64,000 bases of DNA from Desulfobacterales bacterium (GTDB lineage Bacteria; Desulfobacterota; Desulfobacteria; Desulfobacterales; UBA5616), in the NCBI GenBank assembly GCA_046483495.1, contig JAWODC010000064.1:32001-96000 (forward strand), read 5' to 3'. Position 1 is the first letter of the stretch. Every line of letters starts with the position of its first letter. Below the pieces are notes generated by a model. The model worked only from the letters and a program-made list of their open reading frames with translations. It had not been told where the DNA came from and searched no databases. Shown here piece by piece: positions 11,849-20,293 of the stretch. The position numbers and the translations under genes are program-made.

Positions 11849-12679
11849 CTATTCCTCGAGTCTTAAGATCATCAGATCCTCGGCCAATACGAGGGGGCCG
11901 GAATACGCCGTTCGACATTCTTTTTCAGCCGTAAGTCTGTCACATTCCGGGTAGAAATGCGTCAAAACGAGTTTCCCGACATTTGCCAGTCGCGCTGTTT
12001 TCCCGGCCAGGCCCGGCGACATGTGGCCTTTCATTTTTCGGTCGGCCGGGGTCGAGGCATCACAAATCAGCAGATCCGCATTTTGAGCCAGGGACACCAG
12101 ATCATCGCAAAAATCCGTATCACCCGAATAGACCATGGATTTACCGCCGGCATCGGTAATTCTGAAGGCAATGCTCTCGGGGTTGTGGCTAACCGGAACG
12201 GTATCCACCAAAAACGAAACGAAATCGATTCGGTCAGGTTCTGAAACACTCATTTCCACACATTTCAGGGGCCATCCATCCGCCTCGGGTTCTATCCAGC
12301 GTCCGTACACGCTTCTCAGCCGGTCGTAAAAATCGGACAAGCCCTTTCCTCCAACGATCGTAACGCCTTTTTTCTGAAAAACCGTGCGTGTGTGTTTATA
12401 TGAAAAAAGAAACGAAGCCAGTTCGCCGGTATGGTCCGGATGAAAATGGCTGATAAACACATGCGAAATATCGAAAATGGTCGCACCGGCGGTCAGCAGT
12501 CGAAAAATAGTGCCCGGTCCGATATCGATCAGCAGCTTCAGTCCCGACACCTCCAAAAGGGCGGCACTGGAGCTTCGCGCAAGAGAAGGAACGCAGGTGC
12601 CCGAACCCAGAATGGTTACCGTGGTCGCTTTGTCGAAAAAGCGGACCTCATCGGGATGAGAATTATTTTTTTCCTGCAT
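11849..12679 (-). CDS. MBL-fold metallohydrolase (RNase Z-like)
   Basis: ILGSGT, SHFHPDH, YSGDT and LTHFY motifs; start approximate. Confidence 0.85.
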   Translation of the reverse strand: MQEKNNSHPDEVRFFDKATTVTILGSGTCVPSLARSSSAALLEVSGLKLLIDIGPGTIFRLLTAGATIFDISHVFISHFHPDHTGELASFLFSYKHTRTVFQKKGVTIVGGKGLSDFYDRLRSVYGRWIEPEADGWPLKCVEMSVSEPDRIDFVSFLVDTVPVSHNPESIAFRITDAGGKSMVYSGDTDFCDDLVSLAQNADLLICDASTPADRKMKGHMSPGLAGKTARLANVGKLVLTHFYPECDRLTAEKECRTAYSGPLVLAEDLMILRLEE

Positions 12680-13652
12680 GGTGCTGTACTTGACGGATAA
12701 TCCAATTTTGCAGCTTGGCGGCATCCTGGTAATCCACCTGTCCGCTCAGGTCTGAAAGCATAATTTCAGCCCTTGCCATGCTTTTATGCCCTCCTGCTGA
12801 GCCGACATGACCGAAGCTTTTTTTTACAATGTTACCGGAATTTTTTCGAATACCATCATTTCTGAATATGACGATCAGCCGATTGGACCATATCCCGGAA
12901 ACGATACTCCAGTTGATATCATTCACCCGCAGAAAGAAATCGGCGATCAGGACGCACGCATCGGGGTTTGAAATGGGCCCTAAGTGAACGAACACCCGTT
13001 TTTTTCGGCGTTTCATGTTTTCGAGGGCCGTTCTGAAATGCTTCAAAAACTCCGCCGGGATTTCGGATTGTTCGATTTTTCGAATAATATAAGGATTCGA
13101 ATGGTGAAACAGGAACTGAAATGCGCGGAGGTCCTCCACAAGCGTCTGACGTTCAAAATTGCTGGTATCCGTTTTAATAGCATAAAAAAGGGCGGTGGCA
13201 AGCTTTGCCGATGGTTTGATTTTAGCGGCGCGCAGGTATTCCGTGAGCATGGTGGCAGTGGCGCCGTAACTGGGGCGAATGTCCTTAAAAGCGGCCTCGG
13301 GCGCGGTGTCCGGATGATGATCGATGATCACATCGAATGTAAACCTCTGAAAATGCACATTGTGGTCCGGCTGGGAATCGACCATAACGAACCGGGCAAA
13401 CCGCTCAGGCTCTATTTGCGAGACATGGGTCAAATTCACGCCCAACAGCCGAAGCATCGTCAGGTTATCCGGGCGCTTGACGATATTGATATTGGATATG
13501 ACCACACCGGCCACTTTTCGCCACAACAGCCGTTTTACCGCCATCGCACACGCAATGGCATCCGGGTCTGCATTAATGAGTATCAATACGTTGTCTTCAC
13601 TGGTAAAATGCGTATAAAAGCGTCTCAGCCGCTCAGATGTCGATATTTTCAC
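12663..13652 (-). CDS. DHH/DHHA1 phosphoesterase
   Basis: DPDA, IIDHH, TDT and AGGH motifs. Confidence 0.88.
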   Translation of the reverse strand: MKISTSERLRRFYTHFTSEDNVLILINADPDAIACAMAVKRLLWRKVAGVVISNINIVKRPDNLTMLRLLGVNLTHVSQIEPERFARFVMVDSQPDHNVHFQRFTFDVIIDHHPDTAPEAAFKDIRPSYGATATMLTEYLRAAKIKPSAKLATALFYAIKTDTSNFERQTLVEDLRAFQFLFHHSNPYIIRKIEQSEIPAEFLKHFRTALENMKRRKKRVFVHLGPISNPDACVLIADFFLRVNDINWSIVSGIWSNRLIVIFRNDGIRKNSGNIVKKSFGHVGSAGGHKSMARAEIMLSDLSGQVDYQDAAKLQNWIIRQVQHHAGKK

Positions 13653-13851: not shown

Positions 13852-14121
13852 ATGCCGAAACAAAAAAGAGCACATAGTCGCCAGACCACTAATTGGGCCG
13901 AAGGCCTTACCATTATTATGCAGTTGGGCCTGAACATGGCGGGAAGCATCATTTTTTGTTTTTTCGTTGGATATTATATTGACAAATGGCTTTCGACAAA
14001 AGGGATTTTTACGGTGGTTTTTACTATTCTTGGCGTAATCGGTGGCGGATATACTTCATATCGGCAGATAATGGAATTCTCAGAGAAAAAAAATAATCGA
14101 AAAAACAATGAAATCGGTTAG
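13852..14121 (+). CDS. AtpZ/AtpI-family (ATPase gene1) membrane protein
   Basis: Two TMs with GYYIDKW motif; first gene of the atp Fo operon. Confidence 0.8.
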   Translation: MPKQKRAHSRQTTNWAEGLTIIMQLGLNMAGSIIFCFFVGYYIDKWLSTKGIFTVVFTILGVIGGGYTSYRQIMEFSEKKNNRKNNEIG

Positions 14122-14494
14122 GACGATCCAGAAAAAATACTGTTCAAGAGCCATGATGTTTTCCATTTGCATCAGCTTGGGCTTCATTCTTCTTGGAGAA
14201 AAAGCAATAGGAAAGGGAATTGTTCTTGGAACACTGTTCAGCATCATCAATTTTGTCCTTATCGGGGAAATGCTCCCTGCCCGGTTCGCCAAAGGAAAGA
14301 GAAAAACTTTCTTCATCAGTCTGGGATCGATCTTTTTCAGATACCTTCTGCTGGCGATTCCGATCGTACCTGCAGTCAAATATGACACATTCAACTTGTA
14401 TGCAACGGTCGCCGCACTCTTTTCCGTTCAACTGATGATAATAGCCGAACATATATTAGGGATTCTTCCCTTAAAACGAAAACAACAGGCCTAG
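14108..14494 (+). CDS. atpI: ATP synthase subunit I (c-ring assembly factor)
   Basis: Four-TM 128-aa protein with INF and FRY motifs directly upstream of atpB. Confidence 0.75.
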   Translation: MKSVRTIQKKYCSRAMMFSICISLGFILLGEKAIGKGIVLGTLFSIINFVLIGEMLPARFAKGKRKTFFISLGSIFFRYLLLAIPIVPAVKYDTFNLYATVAALFSVQLMIIAEHILGILPLKRKQQA

Positions 14495-14524: not shown

Positions 14525-15199
14525 ATGAAAGAATTAGGAAAAATTCACCAATTGATCGTTCCATTCTTCGGACATGACATGGTGTTTAATTTAGAAGTTA
14601 TCCTCATGACGTGGATCGTTATCGCACTGCTTACCGTTTTTGGAATTTTAGCGGTTCGCAAAATGGGAATCATTCCGCATTACATACAGATGGTTGGAGA
14701 GATGTTCGTTTCACAAATGTATGGAATGACCGAAGATTCGCTGGGTAAAGAACTTGCCCGCAAGTACGCACCGATGATTTGCGCTCTATTCATGTTTTTG
14801 CTGTTGTCAAATTGGCTGGGTATCATTCCTCATCTTCATGAACCTACGAAAGATTTGAATACACCATTAGGAATGGGGATCATGGGTTTTTTTGTAGCCC
14901 ACTACGTGGGCATAAAGGAGAAAGGATTCAAGGGATATTTAGGTAATTATTTCGAACCTTTTTTCTTTATGCTGCCATTGAATATCATCGATGCCCTGTC
15001 CAAGGTAATCAGCATTTCCTTCCGTCTCTTCGGCAACATCATGGGAGGCTCTATTATCATTCTGGTGGTTTCTTATCTAACTTACAGTCTTGTTCTGCCG
15101 CCGATCTTGAATGTTTTTTTCGGTCTTTTTGTCGGAACAATCCAGGCATTTGTATTTACCATGCTTACCGTTACATATATTTCATTGCAGGTAAATTAG
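14525..15199 (+). CDS. atpB: ATP synthase Fo subunit a
   Basis: PTKDLN, stator Arg in SISFRLFGN, IQAFVFTML. Confidence 0.95.
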   Translation: MKELGKIHQLIVPFFGHDMVFNLEVILMTWIVIALLTVFGILAVRKMGIIPHYIQMVGEMFVSQMYGMTEDSLGKELARKYAPMICALFMFLLLSNWLGIIPHLHEPTKDLNTPLGMGIMGFFVAHYVGIKEKGFKGYLGNYFEPFFFMLPLNIIDALSKVISISFRLFGNIMGGSIIILVVSYLTYSLVLPPILNVFFGLFVGTIQAFVFTMLTVTYISLQVN

Positions 15200-15202
15200 G
15201 AT

Positions 15203-16177
15203 ATGGCAATCGATATTCAAACTTGGGTTAAGGTGGCAGCATTTGCAGGCGGCGGGCTTGCGATGGGTCTTGGGGCCATAGGAGCGGCTATCGGTGAAGG
15301 ATATACGGCCGCATCCGCCAACGCCGCAATTTCGAGGAATCCTGAAATTTCCGGAGATGTATTCAAATCCATGCTGATGGGACAAGCCATTGCCGAATCC
15401 GCATCGATTTTTGCGCTTGTTATTGCGATGATACTTTTGTTTTCAGATTTTTCGGCAAATTCCTACGTAATGATTAGTGTTTTGCTTGCCGCCGGTTTGT
15501 GCATGGGCCTCGGAGCGGTAGGATCCGGTGTCGGATCGGGATTTCCGGGCGGTGCGGCTTGCGAAGGGATGGCCCGCCAACCCAGTGCATCAGGTCGATT
15601 AACAACGAATATGCTGATTGGATCCGCAGTAGCCCAAACGCCGGCCATTTTCGCTCTGGTGACGGCCTTCATTCTTTTATTCACTGATTTTTCAACCCGA
15701 CCCGTATATCCTACATGGGCCGCCATTTTGGGTGCGGGATTCGCTTCCGGCTTTGGAGCAATCGGATCGGGATTGGGTGGTGGTTTGGTTGCCCAGACAA
15801 GCTGTTTGGGTGTTGCCCGTCAGCCTCTCGCCGCCACTCCGGTAACAAATGTCATGCTGCTGGGCCAAGCCGTAACTCAGACCACGGCAATTTACGGATT
15901 GTTGGTCAGTTTCATTCTTATATTCAAATTTTTCCCGGCAACGCCGGCAATCGCACCCGGCATGGCCCTCTTGGGAGCCGGACTGTGCATGGGGATCGGT
16001 GCTATCGGGTCGGGAGTTGGTGAAGGTCTGGCGGCACGCAGCGCCGTCGACTGGATTTCCAGGAATGAGGAGGCAATCCCGGATATTACGCGAGTAATGT
16101 TGGTAGGCCAGGCAGTGGCGGAATCCACCGGCATCTATTCCCTGGTTGTGGCTTTGGTTTTAATATTTGTAATCTGA
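15203..16177 (+). CDS. atpE: Four-hairpin fused Fo subunit c; hairpins 1 and 4 have Glu, 2 and 3 have Gln
   Basis: Four ~81-aa repeats with Gly-rich inner helix and RNP/RQP/RQP/RNE loops; outer-helix motifs ESASIF (E65), QTPAIF (Q145), QTTAIY (Q226), ESTGIY (E307). Confidence 0.93.
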   Translation: MAIDIQTWVKVAAFAGGGLAMGLGAIGAAIGEGYTAASANAAISRNPEISGDVFKSMLMGQAIAESASIFALVIAMILLFSDFSANSYVMISVLLAAGLCMGLGAVGSGVGSGFPGGAACEGMARQPSASGRLTTNMLIGSAVAQTPAIFALVTAFILLFTDFSTRPVYPTWAAILGAGFASGFGAIGSGLGGGLVAQTSCLGVARQPLAATPVTNVMLLGQAVTQTTAIYGLLVSFILIFKFFPATPAIAPGMALLGAGLCMGIGAIGSGVGEGLAARSAVDWISRNEEAIPDITRVMLVGQAVAESTGIYSLVVALVLIFVI

Positions 16178-16220
16178 CGATGTATTGTTATTTCATCACT
16201 TTTGTTTACAGGAGGATATC

Positions 16221-16469
16221 ATGGCAATCGAAGGAGCGGACATCATTCAATCGGCAGCATTTTTGGGAGCAGGATTGGCGATGGGTCTCGGTGCAATAGG
16301 CCCGGGAGTCGGCGAAGGTATGGCTGCGGCAAAAGCATGTGAAGCCATCGGAAAAAACCCCAAAGAAGCAGGACTGCTGACCCGAACCATGTTGGTGGGT
16401 CAGGCCGTATCCGAGTCAACGGGCATTTATTCCCTCGTAATCGCGTTGTTGCTTTTATTCGTAGTTTAA
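16221..16469 (+). CDS. atpE: Single-hairpin Fo subunit c, Na+-type two-carboxylate motif
   Basis: GGAGG RBS; 82 aa with P28, E32, V63, E65, S66, T67 and Y70. Confidence 0.95.
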   Translation: MAIEGADIIQSAAFLGAGLAMGLGAIGPGVGEGMAAAKACEAIGKNPKEAGLLTRTMLVGQAVSESTGIYSLVIALLLLFVV

Positions 16470-16491: not shown

Positions 16492-16944
16492 ATGGAGATC
16501 ATCAGCAATATTGCACTCATCAGTATCAATGAAACATTGATCATACAGGTGCTTTCCTTTTTGATATTTTTATTGATCATCAATCGTTTGATGTTTCGCC
16601 CGATAATCGAGATGATTTCCCGGCGGGAAACCCATATTGATCATGTAAAAAGAGAAATCGAACAGGCCGAAGTTGAACTGGACCAAATGAACGCCAGGCT
16701 GAAAGAGCAGGAAACTGTCGTCAAGGAAGAGGCCTTCGATCTGAAGAAGGAGCTGGAAGAGGCCGGTGGCCGAAAAGCAAGCGGCATTTACCTGGCGGTC
16801 AAGGAACAAATTACCGCAAACAAAAAAAAGGCGGAAGAGGAAATAAATTTTCAGATCGAAGCGTCCAAGAATCAAATTAAACAAGAGGCCGAGACGGTGT
16901 CCCTATCCATCATCGAACGAATATTGGATCGGAGATTAACCTGA
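16492..16944 (+). CDS. ATP synthase Fo subunit b'
   Basis: N-terminal TM (TLIIQVLSFLIF), FRPI...RR, long charged coiled coil. Confidence 0.88.
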   Translation: MEIISNIALISINETLIIQVLSFLIFLLIINRLMFRPIIEMISRRETHIDHVKREIEQAEVELDQMNARLKEQETVVKEEAFDLKKELEEAGGRKASGIYLAVKEQITANKKKAEEEINFQIEASKNQIKQEAETVSLSIIERILDRRLT

Positions 16945-17537
16945 TGTGCAGGTTCAGAAAAGTACTTAATCGGATCAACTGGCGGCTGCTCTTCGTATGT
17001 ATTTTCTGTTTTGCCGCAAAAGCGCTTGCCCAGGAGGGCGAAAACGATTGGCGTGCCACATATGATATCTTCATGATGTGGATTAATTTTTTTATTTTGG
17101 TAATTTTGTTCATAAAATTCGGCAAAAAACCGATAAAAAATTACCTGAAAGGACAAAAAGAAGAAGTCAGTGATGAGATCACCGGATTGGAGGGGCAGCG
17201 CAATGATATGCTGCGGCGGATTAAGGACATGGGCAAAGAAATGGAGGAAAGCCGGATTCGTTTTCAGGAGATAAAAGAGAAAATCATCAGCCAGGGTGAA
17301 GCGAAAAAACAGCAAATCATTGAAGAGGCCGAACTGCAAAGCAGGGTCATGCTCGAAGATGCCCAGCGACGCATCGAAAACCGTATTTTGAGCGCAAAAA
17401 AAGATGTGCATGCGCAGCTTGTAGATGAGGCCGTGGAATTAGCCTTTCAATCGATCGGACGATATATCACCGATGAAGACAACCGGAAATTTCTTCAGCA
17501 GTTTCTGGATTCAGCGGCCTTCAAGCAGCCGCTTTAA
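16944..17537 (+). CDS. atpF: ATP synthase Fo subunit b
   Basis: Signal-like N-terminus, WINFFIL TM, KKPI, coiled coil. Confidence 0.88.
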   Translation: MCRFRKVLNRINWRLLFVCIFCFAAKALAQEGENDWRATYDIFMMWINFFILVILFIKFGKKPIKNYLKGQKEEVSDEITGLEGQRNDMLRRIKDMGKEMEESRIRFQEIKEKIISQGEAKKQQIIEEAELQSRVMLEDAQRRIENRILSAKKDVHAQLVDEAVELAFQSIGRYITDEDNRKFLQQFLDSAAFKQPL

Positions 17538-17638: not shown

Positions 17639-20221
17639 TTACAGGCTGGAAAAAGAAATGCCTCCGGTTTCATTGACGTCGGCCAAAATCCGGTCGCCTT
17701 CCTTTATCCTGCCTTTTAAAATCTCCATGGACAGGGGGTTTTCAATATATTTTTGAATAGCCCTCTTCAAGGGCCGGGCCCCATAAACCGGATCAAACCC
17801 CTTTTCGGCCAAAAATTGCTCGGCCTCATCGGTCAGTTCCAGAGAAAGGTTCTGTTCGGAGATCCGTTCGGCAAGACGCCTCATCTGAATCTCAACGATA
17901 TCCACGATTTGTTCCCGTGTCAGGTTTTCGAAAATGATGATTTCATCGATTCTGTTTAAGAACTCGGGCTTGAATCCCATGCGGAGCGCTTCCAATACCC
18001 GTTTTTCCATTTCGTTCCGGTTGGCGCTCAGCTCCTGTATCCACTGGCTTCCCACATTCGATGTCATGATAATGATCGTGTTTTTGAAATCTACGGTTCT
18101 GCCGTGTCCATCGGTCATCCGGCCGTCATCCAATATCTGCAATAATACATTGAATACTTCCGGATGTGCTTTTTCAATTTCATCGAACAAAACAACCGAA
18201 TACGGGCGGCGCCGAACCGCCTCTGTCAAATACCCGCCTTCTTCGTATCCGACATACCCCGGGGGGGCGCCGATAAGCCGAGCCACGGCATGTTTTTCCA
18301 TGTATTCGGACATATCCACGCGGATGATGGCCTGGTCGCTGTCGAAAATAAATTCGGCAAGGGATTTGGCCAACTCCGTTTTTCCAACACCTGTCGGGCC
18401 CAAAAAAATAAATGACCCGATCGGACGGTTGGGGTCCTGCAGCCCGGACCGGGCTCGCCGCACGGCATTGGATACGGCCGATATGGCCTGGCGCTGACCG
18501 ATAACCCGTCGGCCGATACGATCTTCCATCTGCACCAGCTTCTCCCGCTCTCCTTCCATCATCTTGCTCACCGGTATACCCGTCCACCTGGAGATCACCT
18601 CGGCGATATCCTCGGCATCCACTTCCTCTTTCAGCATTTTTTTATCCGTCTGAAGGTTCAAGAGCTTTGTGTTCGCTTCATCGAGCTGCTTTTGGAGTTC
18701 GGCGGTCCTGCCGTACCGGAGTTCGGCGACTTTTGCGAGATCTCCCTCCCGTTCGGCCTGCTGCTCTTCGGTTTTAAGCCGTTCGATCTGCTCTTTTATG
18801 GAACGAATGGTCTGAATCGTTTCCTTTTCGCTTTGCCAGTGCATTTTCATGGCTCGAATTTCTTCGTTCATGGACTCGAGATCCCGCTCGATTTTGGCCA
18901 GCCTTTCCTTGGATGCAGGGTCGGTTTCCTTTTTCAACGCCTCCTTTTCGATTTCGGTTTGAAGGATTTTCCGCTGCACTTCGTCAATTTCGGTGGGCAT
19001 GCTGTCGATTTCGATACGCAGCTTGGATGCACACTCGTCGATCAGGTCGATCGCCTTGTCCGGCAGAAAACGATCCGAAATATACCGATCGGAAAGAGAA
19101 GCGGCCGAGAGAATGGCTGAATCTTTAATACGAACGCCGTGATGGACTTCATACTTCTCCTTCAATCCCCGTAAAATGGAAATGGTATCTTCCACCGTCG
19201 GTTCGGACACCAATACCGGTTGGAATCGCCGCTCCAATGCTGCATCCTTCTCGATATACTTCCGGTATTCGTTCAACGTTGTGGCCCCGACACACCGAAG
19301 TGTTCCTCGCGCCAGCGCCGGCTTGAGCATGTTGGAAGCATCCACGGCGCCCTCGGCCGCACCGGCACCCACGAGGGTGTGCAGCTCGTCAATAAACAAT
19401 ATGACTTCACCTTCGGCGGCCTCCACTTCCTTGAGCACCGCCTTGAGCCGGTCTTCAAATTCACCGCGGTATTTGGCTCCGGCTATCAGGGCGCCCATAT
19501 CCAGGGCGACAAGCCTTCTGTTTTTCAGGGTCTCGGATACGTCGCCGGACACGATTCGCTGGGCCAATCCCTCTACAATGGCCGTTTTGCCGACGCCGGG
19601 TTCACCGATCAAAACGGGATTATTCTTGGTCCTTCTCGAGAGCACCTGTACGATTCGCCGGATTTCCTCATCCCTGCCGATCACCGGATCGAGTTTTCCC
19701 ATTCGTGCCAAGTCCGTCAAATTTCGGCTGTACTTGTCCAATGCCTGATACTTTTCTTCCGGGTTCGGGTCGGTTATGCGCTGAGATCCGCGAATGCTCA
19801 TTAAAACCTTTAACACGGAATCCCGGACAACGCCGTACCGCGCCAAAATACTTGCGGCGTCACCGGATTTTTCGTCGATAATGGCCAGCAGAATATGCTC
19901 GATACTGACATATTCATCCTTCATCTTACCGGCTTCGGCAAACGCCGCCTCCAAGACGGACTTTGTGCGGGACGAAAGATACACCTCTCCGGCGCCGCTG
20001 ATTTTGGGCAGTTTATCGATAGCCATGGCAATCTCCTGGACCACGGCATCCGGAGAAACCCCTACTTTGCGGAACACGGTCCGCGTCATGCCCTCCGGTT
20101 CACTCAACATGGCACTGAGAAGATGTTCAGGCTCGATCTGCTGATTGCTGTGACGCGTCGCCAGAGATTGGGCGTTTTGAATCAATTCCTGGGATTTTAT
20201 AGTAAATTTATCGAATCTCAT
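17639..20221 (-). CDS. clpB: Chaperone ClpB
   Basis: Two AAA+ modules ([16 protein letters not shown]), coiled-coil M domain, AGGAGG RBS before MRFDKFT. Confidence 0.97.
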
Positions 20222-20259
20222 GATTCTCCTCCTAATGTAGGAAAATACGACAGTCTTTT

Positions 20260-20293
20260 TGCATGAAAGTAAGCATGCACCGTTTTTTGTCAA
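20260..20293 (-). promoter_or_regulatory. Putative sigma70 promoter of clpB overlapped by an inverted repeat
   Basis: Minus strand TTGACA-N16-TACTTT; TGCATG-N8-CATGCA (20260-20279) spans the -10 box. Confidence 0.5.

What the first reader, a model, noticed from the sequence alone, without database searches (positions are those of the whole stretch)
15203..16469. Four-hairpin c subunit with two adjacent dead sites, co-encoded with a normal Na+ c subunit: candidate new heteromeric rotor
Seen: a 324-aa fusion of four c hairpins whose inner/outer site residues are E32/E65, S112/Q145, G193/Q226 and E274/E307, followed by an 82-aa c subunit with E32, E65, S66, T67 and Y70. Established: this two-carboxylate motif matches the Na+ c-ring of Fusobacterium nucleatum, and Acetobacterium woodii builds a hybrid ring containing a two-hairpin c1 with one site lost by Glu-to-Gln. 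Inference: this ring would carry two consecutive empty positions, lowering ions per turn (for example 9 sites if the ring has 11 hairpins and one fusion copy; ring size is an assumption). That would favour ion pumping or change the energy threshold for ATP synthesis. I know of no characterised bacterial F-type four-hairpin subunit like this, but cannot check novelty here.
Basis: partly seen in the sequence, partly recalled or inferred. Interest (0 to 1): 0.88.

Follow-up and report, generated by a model that had tools for sequence, protein, structure and literature searches.

The report
Four-hairpin sodium rotor, two dead sites
This sulfate-reducer-type bacterium carries a second membrane motor for its ATP synthase, and one rotor gene of that motor fuses four rotor units, two neighbouring ones unable to carry sodium, which would put an ion-free gap in the rotor and change how many ions move per ATP.

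Summary
Observation confirmed: window 15203-16177 encodes 324 aa with four c hairpins (E-Q-Q-E), followed by an 82-aa two-carboxylate Na+ c subunit. It is intact, under purifying selection and common in Desulfobacterota. E-Q-Q-E is one of several patterns (19 of 40 four-hairpin relatives; also EQQQ, EQEE, and 3-6 hairpins). The patterns follow a rule: a hairpin keeps its Ser/Thr/Tyr half-site only when the next hairpin keeps its glutamates (154 of 156 junctions), and both outer half-sites stay intact, as expected for an arc inside a mixed ring. The operon is Fo-only. The genome has an ordinary H+-type Fo and one canonical F1, and 39 of 42 relatives have exactly one canonical gamma, so two motors probably share one head. 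Closest known: Acetobacterium woodii c1 (two hairpins, one dead site). Ring size, incorporation and direction are untested; fewer ions per turn is an inference. Ten literature searches found no description, but the key 2015 hybrid-rotor survey was not available, and the spare Fo operon was already noted in print for Desulfococcus oleovorans. This scan found the same family repeatedly on other genomes. New variant of a known kind.

The parts
13852..14121 (+). atpZ/atpQ-like gene (ATPase_gene1), 89 aa
   Evidence: PF09527 E 1.2e-16
14108..14494 (+). atpI, 128 aa (c-ring assembly helper by family)
   Evidence: PF03899 E 6.3e-07
14525..15199 (+). atpB, subunit a, 224 aa; keeps the stator Arg in the RLFGN motif; 34% identical to the genome's ordinary subunit a
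   Evidence: PF00119 E 3.3e-51; alignment and BLAST
15203..16177 (+). Fused four-hairpin c subunit, 324 aa (P0001); starts 3 nt after the atpB stop with a weak Shine-Dalgarno match
15215..15442 (+). Hairpin 1: E32/E65 kept (live site with an upstream neighbour); own half-site for hairpin 2 decayed (S66, A67, F70)
15467..15682 (+). Hairpin 2: S112/Q145, dead; half-site for hairpin 3 decayed (T146, P147, F150); loop R-Q-P
15704..15925 (+). Hairpin 3: G193/Q226, dead; keeps T227, T228, Y231, which complete hairpin 4's site; loop R-Q-P
15950..16171 (+). Hairpin 4: E274/E307 live; keeps S308, T309, Y312 for the next subunit; most like the single c (57%)
16210..16215 (+). Strong Shine-Dalgarno (AGGAGG) of the single c gene
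   Evidence: -10.3 against -3.8 kcal/mol for the fused gene
16221..16469 (+). Single-hairpin c subunit, 82 aa (P0002), two-carboxylate Na+ motif E32, V63, E65, S66, T67, Y70
16492..16944 (+). Subunit b', 150 aa
   Evidence: PF00430 E 4.2e-12
16944..17537 (+). Subunit b, 197 aa; 25% identical over 177 aa to the b encoded beside the canonical F1 genes; last gene of the operon
   Evidence: PF00430
17602..17627 (+). Terminator-like hairpin between subunit b and the convergent clpB; consensus match only (7 found against 4.5 +/- 1.7 in shuffles)

Best explanation
The 324-aa protein is the minor subunit of a mixed Na+ c-ring in an accessory Fo motor. About one copy forms a four-hairpin arc and copies of the 82-aa c close the ring. 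Hairpin 1 binds Na+ with the c before it, hairpin 4 binds Na+ with hairpin 3's Thr/Thr/Tyr and lends its own Ser/Thr/Tyr to the c after it, and positions 2 and 3 are empty. This Fo (a, c x4, c, b', b) has no F1 of its own and most likely docks on the genome's single canonical F1, as an alternative to the ordinary H+-type Fo. Shown: sequence, motifs, operon, conservation, gene inventory. Inferred: ring incorporation, about one copy per ring, Na+ specificity, F1 sharing, lower Na+/ATP (3.0 instead of 3.67 if the ring has 11 hairpins, an assumption). Direction is open. I lean to ATP-driven Na+ pumping or high-potential work (about 55:45), because a rotor driven by F1 crosses an ion-free arc at no cost, whereas in synthesis one ion must drive about 98 degrees (hand arithmetic, 3 x 360/11), and relatives have up to five dead positions in a row.
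For: Each site is built from Glu32/Glu65 of one subunit and Val63/Ser66 of the adjacent one (PMC3692424 passages); in multi-hairpin subunits the Ser/Thr/Tyr come from the previous hairpin (ProAD supplement). In 54 locus-derived proteins, half-site on hairpin n and glutamates on hairpin n+1 agree at 154 of 156 junctions; the reverse direction agrees at 39 of 156; the first hairpin keeps its glutamates in 53 of 54 and the last keeps Ser/Thr/Tyr in 54 of 54. A. woodii c1 shows the same residues: Glu with Phe70 in its first hairpin, Gln with Thr/Thr/Tyr in its second. Dead hairpins are as conserved as live ones (0.80, 0.80 against 0.82, 0.79) with pN 0.02-0.16 against pS 0.62-0.86 in four gap-free pairs. 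The single c has the stronger Shine-Dalgarno in 32 of 32 and 15 of 15 loci. Of 42 genomes, 39 have exactly one canonical gamma and none has two; 40 have an ordinary c elsewhere, 41 with G219. In 5 of 17 more distant loci the operon runs on into F1 genes, with alpha 68-75% identical to this genome's canonical alpha. Co-folding gave weak support: 0.41 against best of 3 controls 0.00, runs agreeing in at least 93% of contacts, partner pLDDT at least 73. That mark was reached by 116 of 157 solved complexes and 2 of 215 mismatches, but at 0.60 or under by only 18 of the 157 and by both mismatches, and a like complex (4BEM) is solved.
Against: No protein-level evidence. RNA evidence is short contigs from four runs of one study, without a DNA control. 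The junction counts are of related sequences: on a quick tree of 40 proteins the states change only 3-5 times and there are too few independent pairs for a test. Among 98 distant representatives the rule is weaker (19 junctions with both halves, 19 with glutamates but no half-site, 5 the reverse). One relative (G034, 97% complete) has the operon with the single c only, and no fusion was found in its genome with this query, so the fusion is dispensable. Translational coupling to atpB could offset the weak Shine-Dalgarno. Ring size is unknown: dead hairpins could be added to the ring rather than replace live ones. A. woodii's hybrid enzyme synthesises ATP at a low threshold, which argues against reading dead sites as a pump signature.
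Confidence: 0.7

Rival explanations
1. The fusion sits in the ring mainly as a structural piece, a docking platform for the gamma/epsilon foot or an assembly nucleus. The dead sites are tolerated and the ring grows, so ions per turn hardly change.
For: The dead hairpins keep the canonical loop best: R-x-P in 38 of 40 second and 39 of 40 third hairpins, against 3 of 40 fourth hairpins; the single c has Lys in place of the loop Arg in 24 of 50 loci. Hairpin number varies from 3 to 6 while the ends stay fixed. The role of this loop in binding F1 is recalled; one search gave no passage on it.
Against: Docking does not require losing both halves of a site. G034 has the operon without the fusion. 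Not exclusive of the best explanation.
Confidence: 0.17
2. The fusion forms its own ring (for example three copies, 12 hairpins, six sites) separate from the ring of the single c.
For: The last hairpin's half-site could equally complete hairpin 1 of another copy. Archaeal multi-hairpin subunits form rings alone (bioRxiv 10.64898/2026.10.01.756066 passages).
Against: Weak ribosome site behind atpB in 47 of 47 loci; a strongly translated single c lies in the same operon; one-site forms with six hairpins would give rings with two sites; the A. woodii precedent is a mixed ring.
Confidence: 0.07
3. The fusion is a decaying or non-ring by-product of tandem duplication, or a regulator that blocks ring assembly.
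For: Absent from one operon, relocated in two genomes (L036/L062, L052). No proteomic detection found in the one supplement searched.
Against: Strong purifying selection on all four hairpins; found in 24 of 40 sampled relatives from genus to order; relocated copies keep intact patterns; end half-sites conserved.
Confidence: 0.06

Closest known systems
Acetobacterium woodii c1 of the F/V-hybrid Na+ ring (PDB 4BEM chain J); Clostridium aceticum c1
   Same: Best PDB match by sequence (E 7.8e-23) and fold (Foldseek rank 1). Fused c gene beside a single-hairpin c gene; first hairpin Glu, later hairpin Gln with Thr/Thr/Tyr kept. One c1 plus nine single c in A. woodii (PMC9171764; PMC7911925).
   Different: Four hairpins rather than two; two adjacent dead sites rather than one; a live fourth hairpin; Glu32 rather than Gln32; about 15 fewer N-terminal residues (c1 residue 27 aligns to residue 12); Fo-only operon; family spans 3-6 hairpins.
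Fusobacterium nucleatum two-carboxylate Na+ c11 ring (PDB 3ZK1; PMC3692424)
   Same: E32, V63, E65, S66, T67, Y70 in the single c and in hairpin 4.
   Different: Homomeric ring with all sites occupied; the motif predicts Na+ but M. acetivorans uses a similar site for both ions.
Ectopic duplicated Fo operon of Desulfococcus oleovorans (Koumandou and Kossida 2014, PMC4154653)
   Same: A second a-c-b'-b set without F1 genes in a Desulfobacterales genome, a and c of distinct origin.
   Different: The passages seen mention no multi-hairpin c, ion specificity or F1 sharing. I did not check that organism's sequence.
Archaeal multi-hairpin c/K subunits (1, 2, 3 or 13 hairpins) and V-type c
   Same: Fused hairpins with fewer ion sites.
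   Different: A/V-type enzymes; here F-type a, b', b and R-x-P loops. The passages seen describe no run of adjacent dead sites in an F-type ring.
N-ATPase
   Same: Accessory Na+-motif enzyme beside the main synthase.
   Different: N-ATPases carry their own F1 genes; this genome's N-ATPase is a separate locus on C11.

Membership tests
F-type subunit c (PF00137) | Helical hairpin domain(s) matching the family | tested here: met
   Four stretches, 201.8 bits against cut-off 24; eight membrane helices in the model
Two-carboxylate Na+ c subunit (F. nucleatum type) | E32 and E65 plus V63, S/T66, T67, Y70 from the neighbour | tested here: met
   Single c complete; hairpin 4 complete with hairpin 3; hairpin 1 complete only with an upstream c. 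Position 28 is Ala in hairpin 1 and Ser in hairpin 4, not Pro.
Two-carboxylate Na+ c subunit (F. nucleatum type) | Measured Na+ dependence or Na+-protected DCCD labelling | not testable with these tools
   Needs biochemistry
A. woodii-type hybrid-rotor c1 | Fused c gene next to a single-hairpin c gene in an F-type operon | tested here: met
   Order atpB, fused c, single c, b', b
A. woodii-type hybrid-rotor c1 | First hairpin keeps the carboxylate, a later one has Glu to Gln | tested here: met
   E65; Q145, Q226
A. woodii-type hybrid-rotor c1 | Two hairpins (four helices) with one site, V-type-like | tested here: not met
   Four hairpins, two sites
A. woodii-type hybrid-rotor c1 | Encoded in a complete operon with the F1 genes | tested here: not met
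   Operon ends at b; complete in 5 of 17 more distant loci
A. woodii-type hybrid-rotor c1 | Co-assembly with the single c in one ring | tested here: inconclusive
   Weak co-folding support, 0.41 against control 0.00, like complex solved; half-site complementarity is indirect
N-ATPase | Own beta, epsilon, alpha, gamma in one cluster with b-delta fusion | tested here: not met
   None in this operon; separate N-ATPase on C11
A/V-type ATPase subunit K | A/V-type stator (subunit I) and operon | tested here: not met
   Neighbours are PF00119 a and PF00430 b', b

The most novel reading that the evidence does not exclude
Many Desulfobacterota run one F1 head on two exchangeable membrane motors, an H+ one and a Na+ one, and the Na+ rotor carries a genetically fixed ion-free sector of one to five adjacent positions, held in register with the central stalk by the dead hairpins' loops. 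Lineages retune ions per ATP, and possibly bias the direction, by adding hairpins or switching whole sites on and off in one gene.
Probability: 0.35. Interest if true: 0.85.

Novelty: new variant of a known kind. Interest (0 to 1): 0.63.

Why it matters
The only characterised F-type hybrid rotor design that I found has one empty site. A natural series with one to five adjacent empty positions, present in cultured strains (Desulfosarcina variabilis, E-Q-Q-E; D. cetonica JCM 12296, E-Q-E-E), makes two open questions testable: how a rotor crosses an arc without ion-binding sites, and whether cells living on little energy tune ions per ATP. A shared F1 on H+ and Na+ motors would also change the energy budgets drawn for sulfate reducers, where a 2026 paper still could not resolve the ion specificity of multiple atpE copies (PMC13343851).

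Tried and rejected
Assembly artefact: rejected. TTG start at 16185 for the single c: rejected. Universal E-Q-Q-E: true for 104 of 104 four-hairpin proteins among the 120 best hits, but that set is biased to the query; 19 of 40 in the taxon-spread set. Tree test of co-variation: the careful tree did not finish; the quick tree gave 2 and 1 independent pairs on starred branches, not significant. Longer fused forms (568-2000 aa): one archaeal 12-hairpin protein only, weak evidence of absence. Promoter scan: 3 sites against 7.0 +/- 3.1 in shuffles, uninformative. pN/pS rows for L026 hairpin 1 and L037 hairpins 1-3 were out of register through indels and were dropped. One search left out L013, L015, L018 (same sequences as L032, L031, L041) and truncated L055, L077; L023 is kept but ends at a contig edge. 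No proteomic mention of AtpE in the supplement of PMC11887813 or of ATP synthase in PMC5109826. No passage on the c-loop Arg in PMC7251095. The second four-hairpin family could not be assigned to a taxon. What fell in the later check of earlier finding e1-2413557 was not shown.

Full report
Observation. The finding is as described. Window 15203-16177 encodes 324 aa with four PF00137 stretches and the residues E32/E65, S112/Q145, G193/Q226, E274/E307. The gene at 16221-16469 encodes 82 aa with E32, V63, E65, S66, T67 and Y70. The hairpins are 35-47% identical to each other and 40-57% to the single c, so the fusion is old and not an assembly repeat. AlphaFold2 with 49 sequences gives four hairpins at pLDDT 95.6, pTM 0.90.

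Context. The operon is atpZ, atpI, a, fused c, single c, b', b and ends before a convergent clpB. It has no F1 genes. The genome (96.7% complete, 2.1% contamination) has an ordinary atpZ-I-B-E locus on C69 whose c reads Q32, E65, S66, L67, Y70 (H+-type by the ProAD rule), one b'-b-delta-alpha-gamma-beta-epsilon locus on C81 and a complete N-ATPase on C11. It has two RnfD/NqrB-family genes. The nearest named relatives are Desulfobacteraceae MAGs at 85-90%.

Family. A search found 2182 proteins at E <= 0.001 among 8000 candidates of 178-567 aa. Of the 120 best, 104 have four hairpins, all E-Q-Q-E, and 16 have five or six. That set is biased to the query. In a taxon-spread sample 24 of 40 relatives (genus to order) hold a multi-hairpin gene, as do 19 of 201 genomes of the phylum at E <= 1e-30, counting this one. 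Among 54 locus-derived proteins the patterns are EQQE 19, EQQQ 13, EQEE 7, EQQ 7, EQQQE 2 and one each of EQQQQQ, EQQQQ, EQEQ, ETQ, EQE, EE. Three near-duplicate loci and two truncated ones were left out; L023 ends at a contig edge.

The patterns are ordered. A Na+ site lies between two hairpins: Glu32 and Glu65 from one, Val63 and Ser66 from the adjacent one, with Tyr70 and Thr67 supporting (PMC3692424, passages). For multi-hairpin subunits the Ser/Thr/Tyr come from the previous hairpin (PMC11738941 supplement, whole text). In this protein hairpins 1 and 2 have lost that half-site (S-A-F, T-P-F) and precede the two Gln hairpins; hairpin 3 keeps it (T-T-Y) and precedes the live hairpin 4. Across the 54 proteins the two halves agree at 154 of 156 junctions (34 both present, 120 both absent, 2 mismatches); the reverse direction agrees at 39 of 156. 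The first hairpin keeps its glutamates in 53 of 54 and the last keeps Ser/Thr/Tyr in 54 of 54. Both ends therefore face working neighbours, as for an arc within a ring. Limits: the sequences are related, the states change only 3-5 times on a quick tree, and independent pairs are too few to test; among 98 distant representatives the rule is weaker.

Selection and stoichiometry. Dead hairpins are as conserved as live ones and show pN 0.02-0.16 against pS 0.62-0.86 in four gap-free pairs. The single c has the stronger Shine-Dalgarno match in 32 of 32 and 15 of 15 loci, which fits few fusions and many single c per ring; coupling to atpB could blur this. Near-identical contigs from four salt-lake RNA runs of one study cover 15290-15432 and 16005-16361, one of them across the two c genes. 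Without a DNA control this is not proof of transcription. Co-folding of the fusion with four single c gave weak support: 0.41, best of three controls 0.00, contacts agreeing at least 93%, pLDDT at least 73; only 18 of 157 solved complexes and both passing mismatches (2 of 215) scored in this range, and a like complex is solved.

Two motors, one head. Of 42 genomes (41 with a multi-hairpin c, plus G034), 39 have exactly one canonical gamma and none has two. Forty have an ordinary c elsewhere at E <= 1e-14, and G219 has one just below that. In 5 of 17 more distant loci the multi-hairpin operon continues into F1 genes, with alpha 68-75% identical to this genome's canonical alpha (four loci show delta to epsilon, L076 ends at alpha). 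The single-contig genome G057 has F1 only there, plus a second Fo without b subunits and with an H+-type c. Sharing of one F1 is an inference from gene inventory.

How it most likely works. One fusion and several single c form a Na+ ring with two adjacent empty positions. With 11 hairpins that gives nine sites, 3.0 Na+/ATP, and a minimum driving force of 104 mV rather than 85 mV at 30 kJ/mol (ring size assumed). An ion-free arc is free for a pump but a barrier for synthesis (about 98 degrees on one ion, hand arithmetic), and relatives have up to five dead positions, so I lean slightly to pumping. Against that, the A. woodii hybrid enzyme and a V-type-c enzyme synthesised ATP from about 90 mV (PMC9171764, passages). 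A rival, partly compatible, is a structural role: the dead hairpins keep the R-x-P loop (38 of 40, 39 of 40) while the single c has Lys in 24 of 50 loci; that this loop binds gamma/epsilon is recalled. G034 has the operon without the fusion, so the fusion is not essential to this Fo.

Comparison with what is known. The closest structure is A. woodii c1. It works like that hybrid-rotor subunit but fails the two-hairpin and complete-operon features, so I do not file it as a c1. Ten full-text searches found no description of a 3-6-hairpin F-type c in sulfate reducers. Partial prior notice exists. PMC4154653 (passages) reports the duplicated ectopic Fo of Desulfococcus oleovorans. PMC13343851 (passages) notes two to four atpE copies in Desulfatiglandales without resolving specificity. 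ProAD (passages, part of the main text and the supplement; figures and database tables not seen) and a 2026 preprint (passages, supplements not seen) mention multi-hairpin c subunits in general. PMC7911925 (passages) describes C. aceticum c1. PMC11887813, PMC5109826 and PMC7251095 (passages) added nothing. Brandt and Muller 2015, on the distribution of hybrid rotors, and Matthies 2014 were not held; the first could already list such genes. This scan has noted the family on many other genomes; those notes are not independent support.

Verdict. Real, conserved and well explained in outline; the consequences for ion coupling are untested. New variant of a known kind, interest 0.63.

Noticed in passing
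P0194, P0198-P0201, P0203, P0207, P0210-P0213 and others: A second, divergent four-hairpin c family of 312-329 aa, mostly E-Q-E-D or E-Q-E-E without the Na+ half-sites. No taxon could be assigned from names.
   Followed up: partly
P0143, P0208: 14- and 8-hairpin proteolipids with Glu in every hairpin and no Na+ motif; cluster members are named as Promethearchaeota, Hodarchaeota and Thorarchaeota.
   Followed up: partly
L036:3185-4162 and L062 (G039); L052:3031-4011 (G020): The fused gene has moved out of its slot (to another contig in G039, downstream of b in G020) with an intact pattern; L036 still has an atpB-tail-like upstream sequence.
   Followed up: partly
L058 (G034): The same Na+-type Fo operon with only the single c gene: a natural control without the fusion.
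   Followed up: partly
L046 and L054 (G008): One genome with two such operons, one four-hairpin (EQQQ) and one five-hairpin (EQQQQ).
   Followed up: no
L084:4869-5411 and L086:4426-4806 (G078): Two lone single-hairpin c genes with no other ATP synthase gene detected in the loci, one of them upstream of ORFs that look like rnf genes by eye.
   Followed up: no
L079 (G173): Two-hairpin c with both Na+ sites intact (EE), placed after the single c.
   Followed up: no
window 12663-13652 (-) and 17639-20293 (-): A DHH-family gene and clpB flank the operon here and in several close relatives.
   Followed up: no
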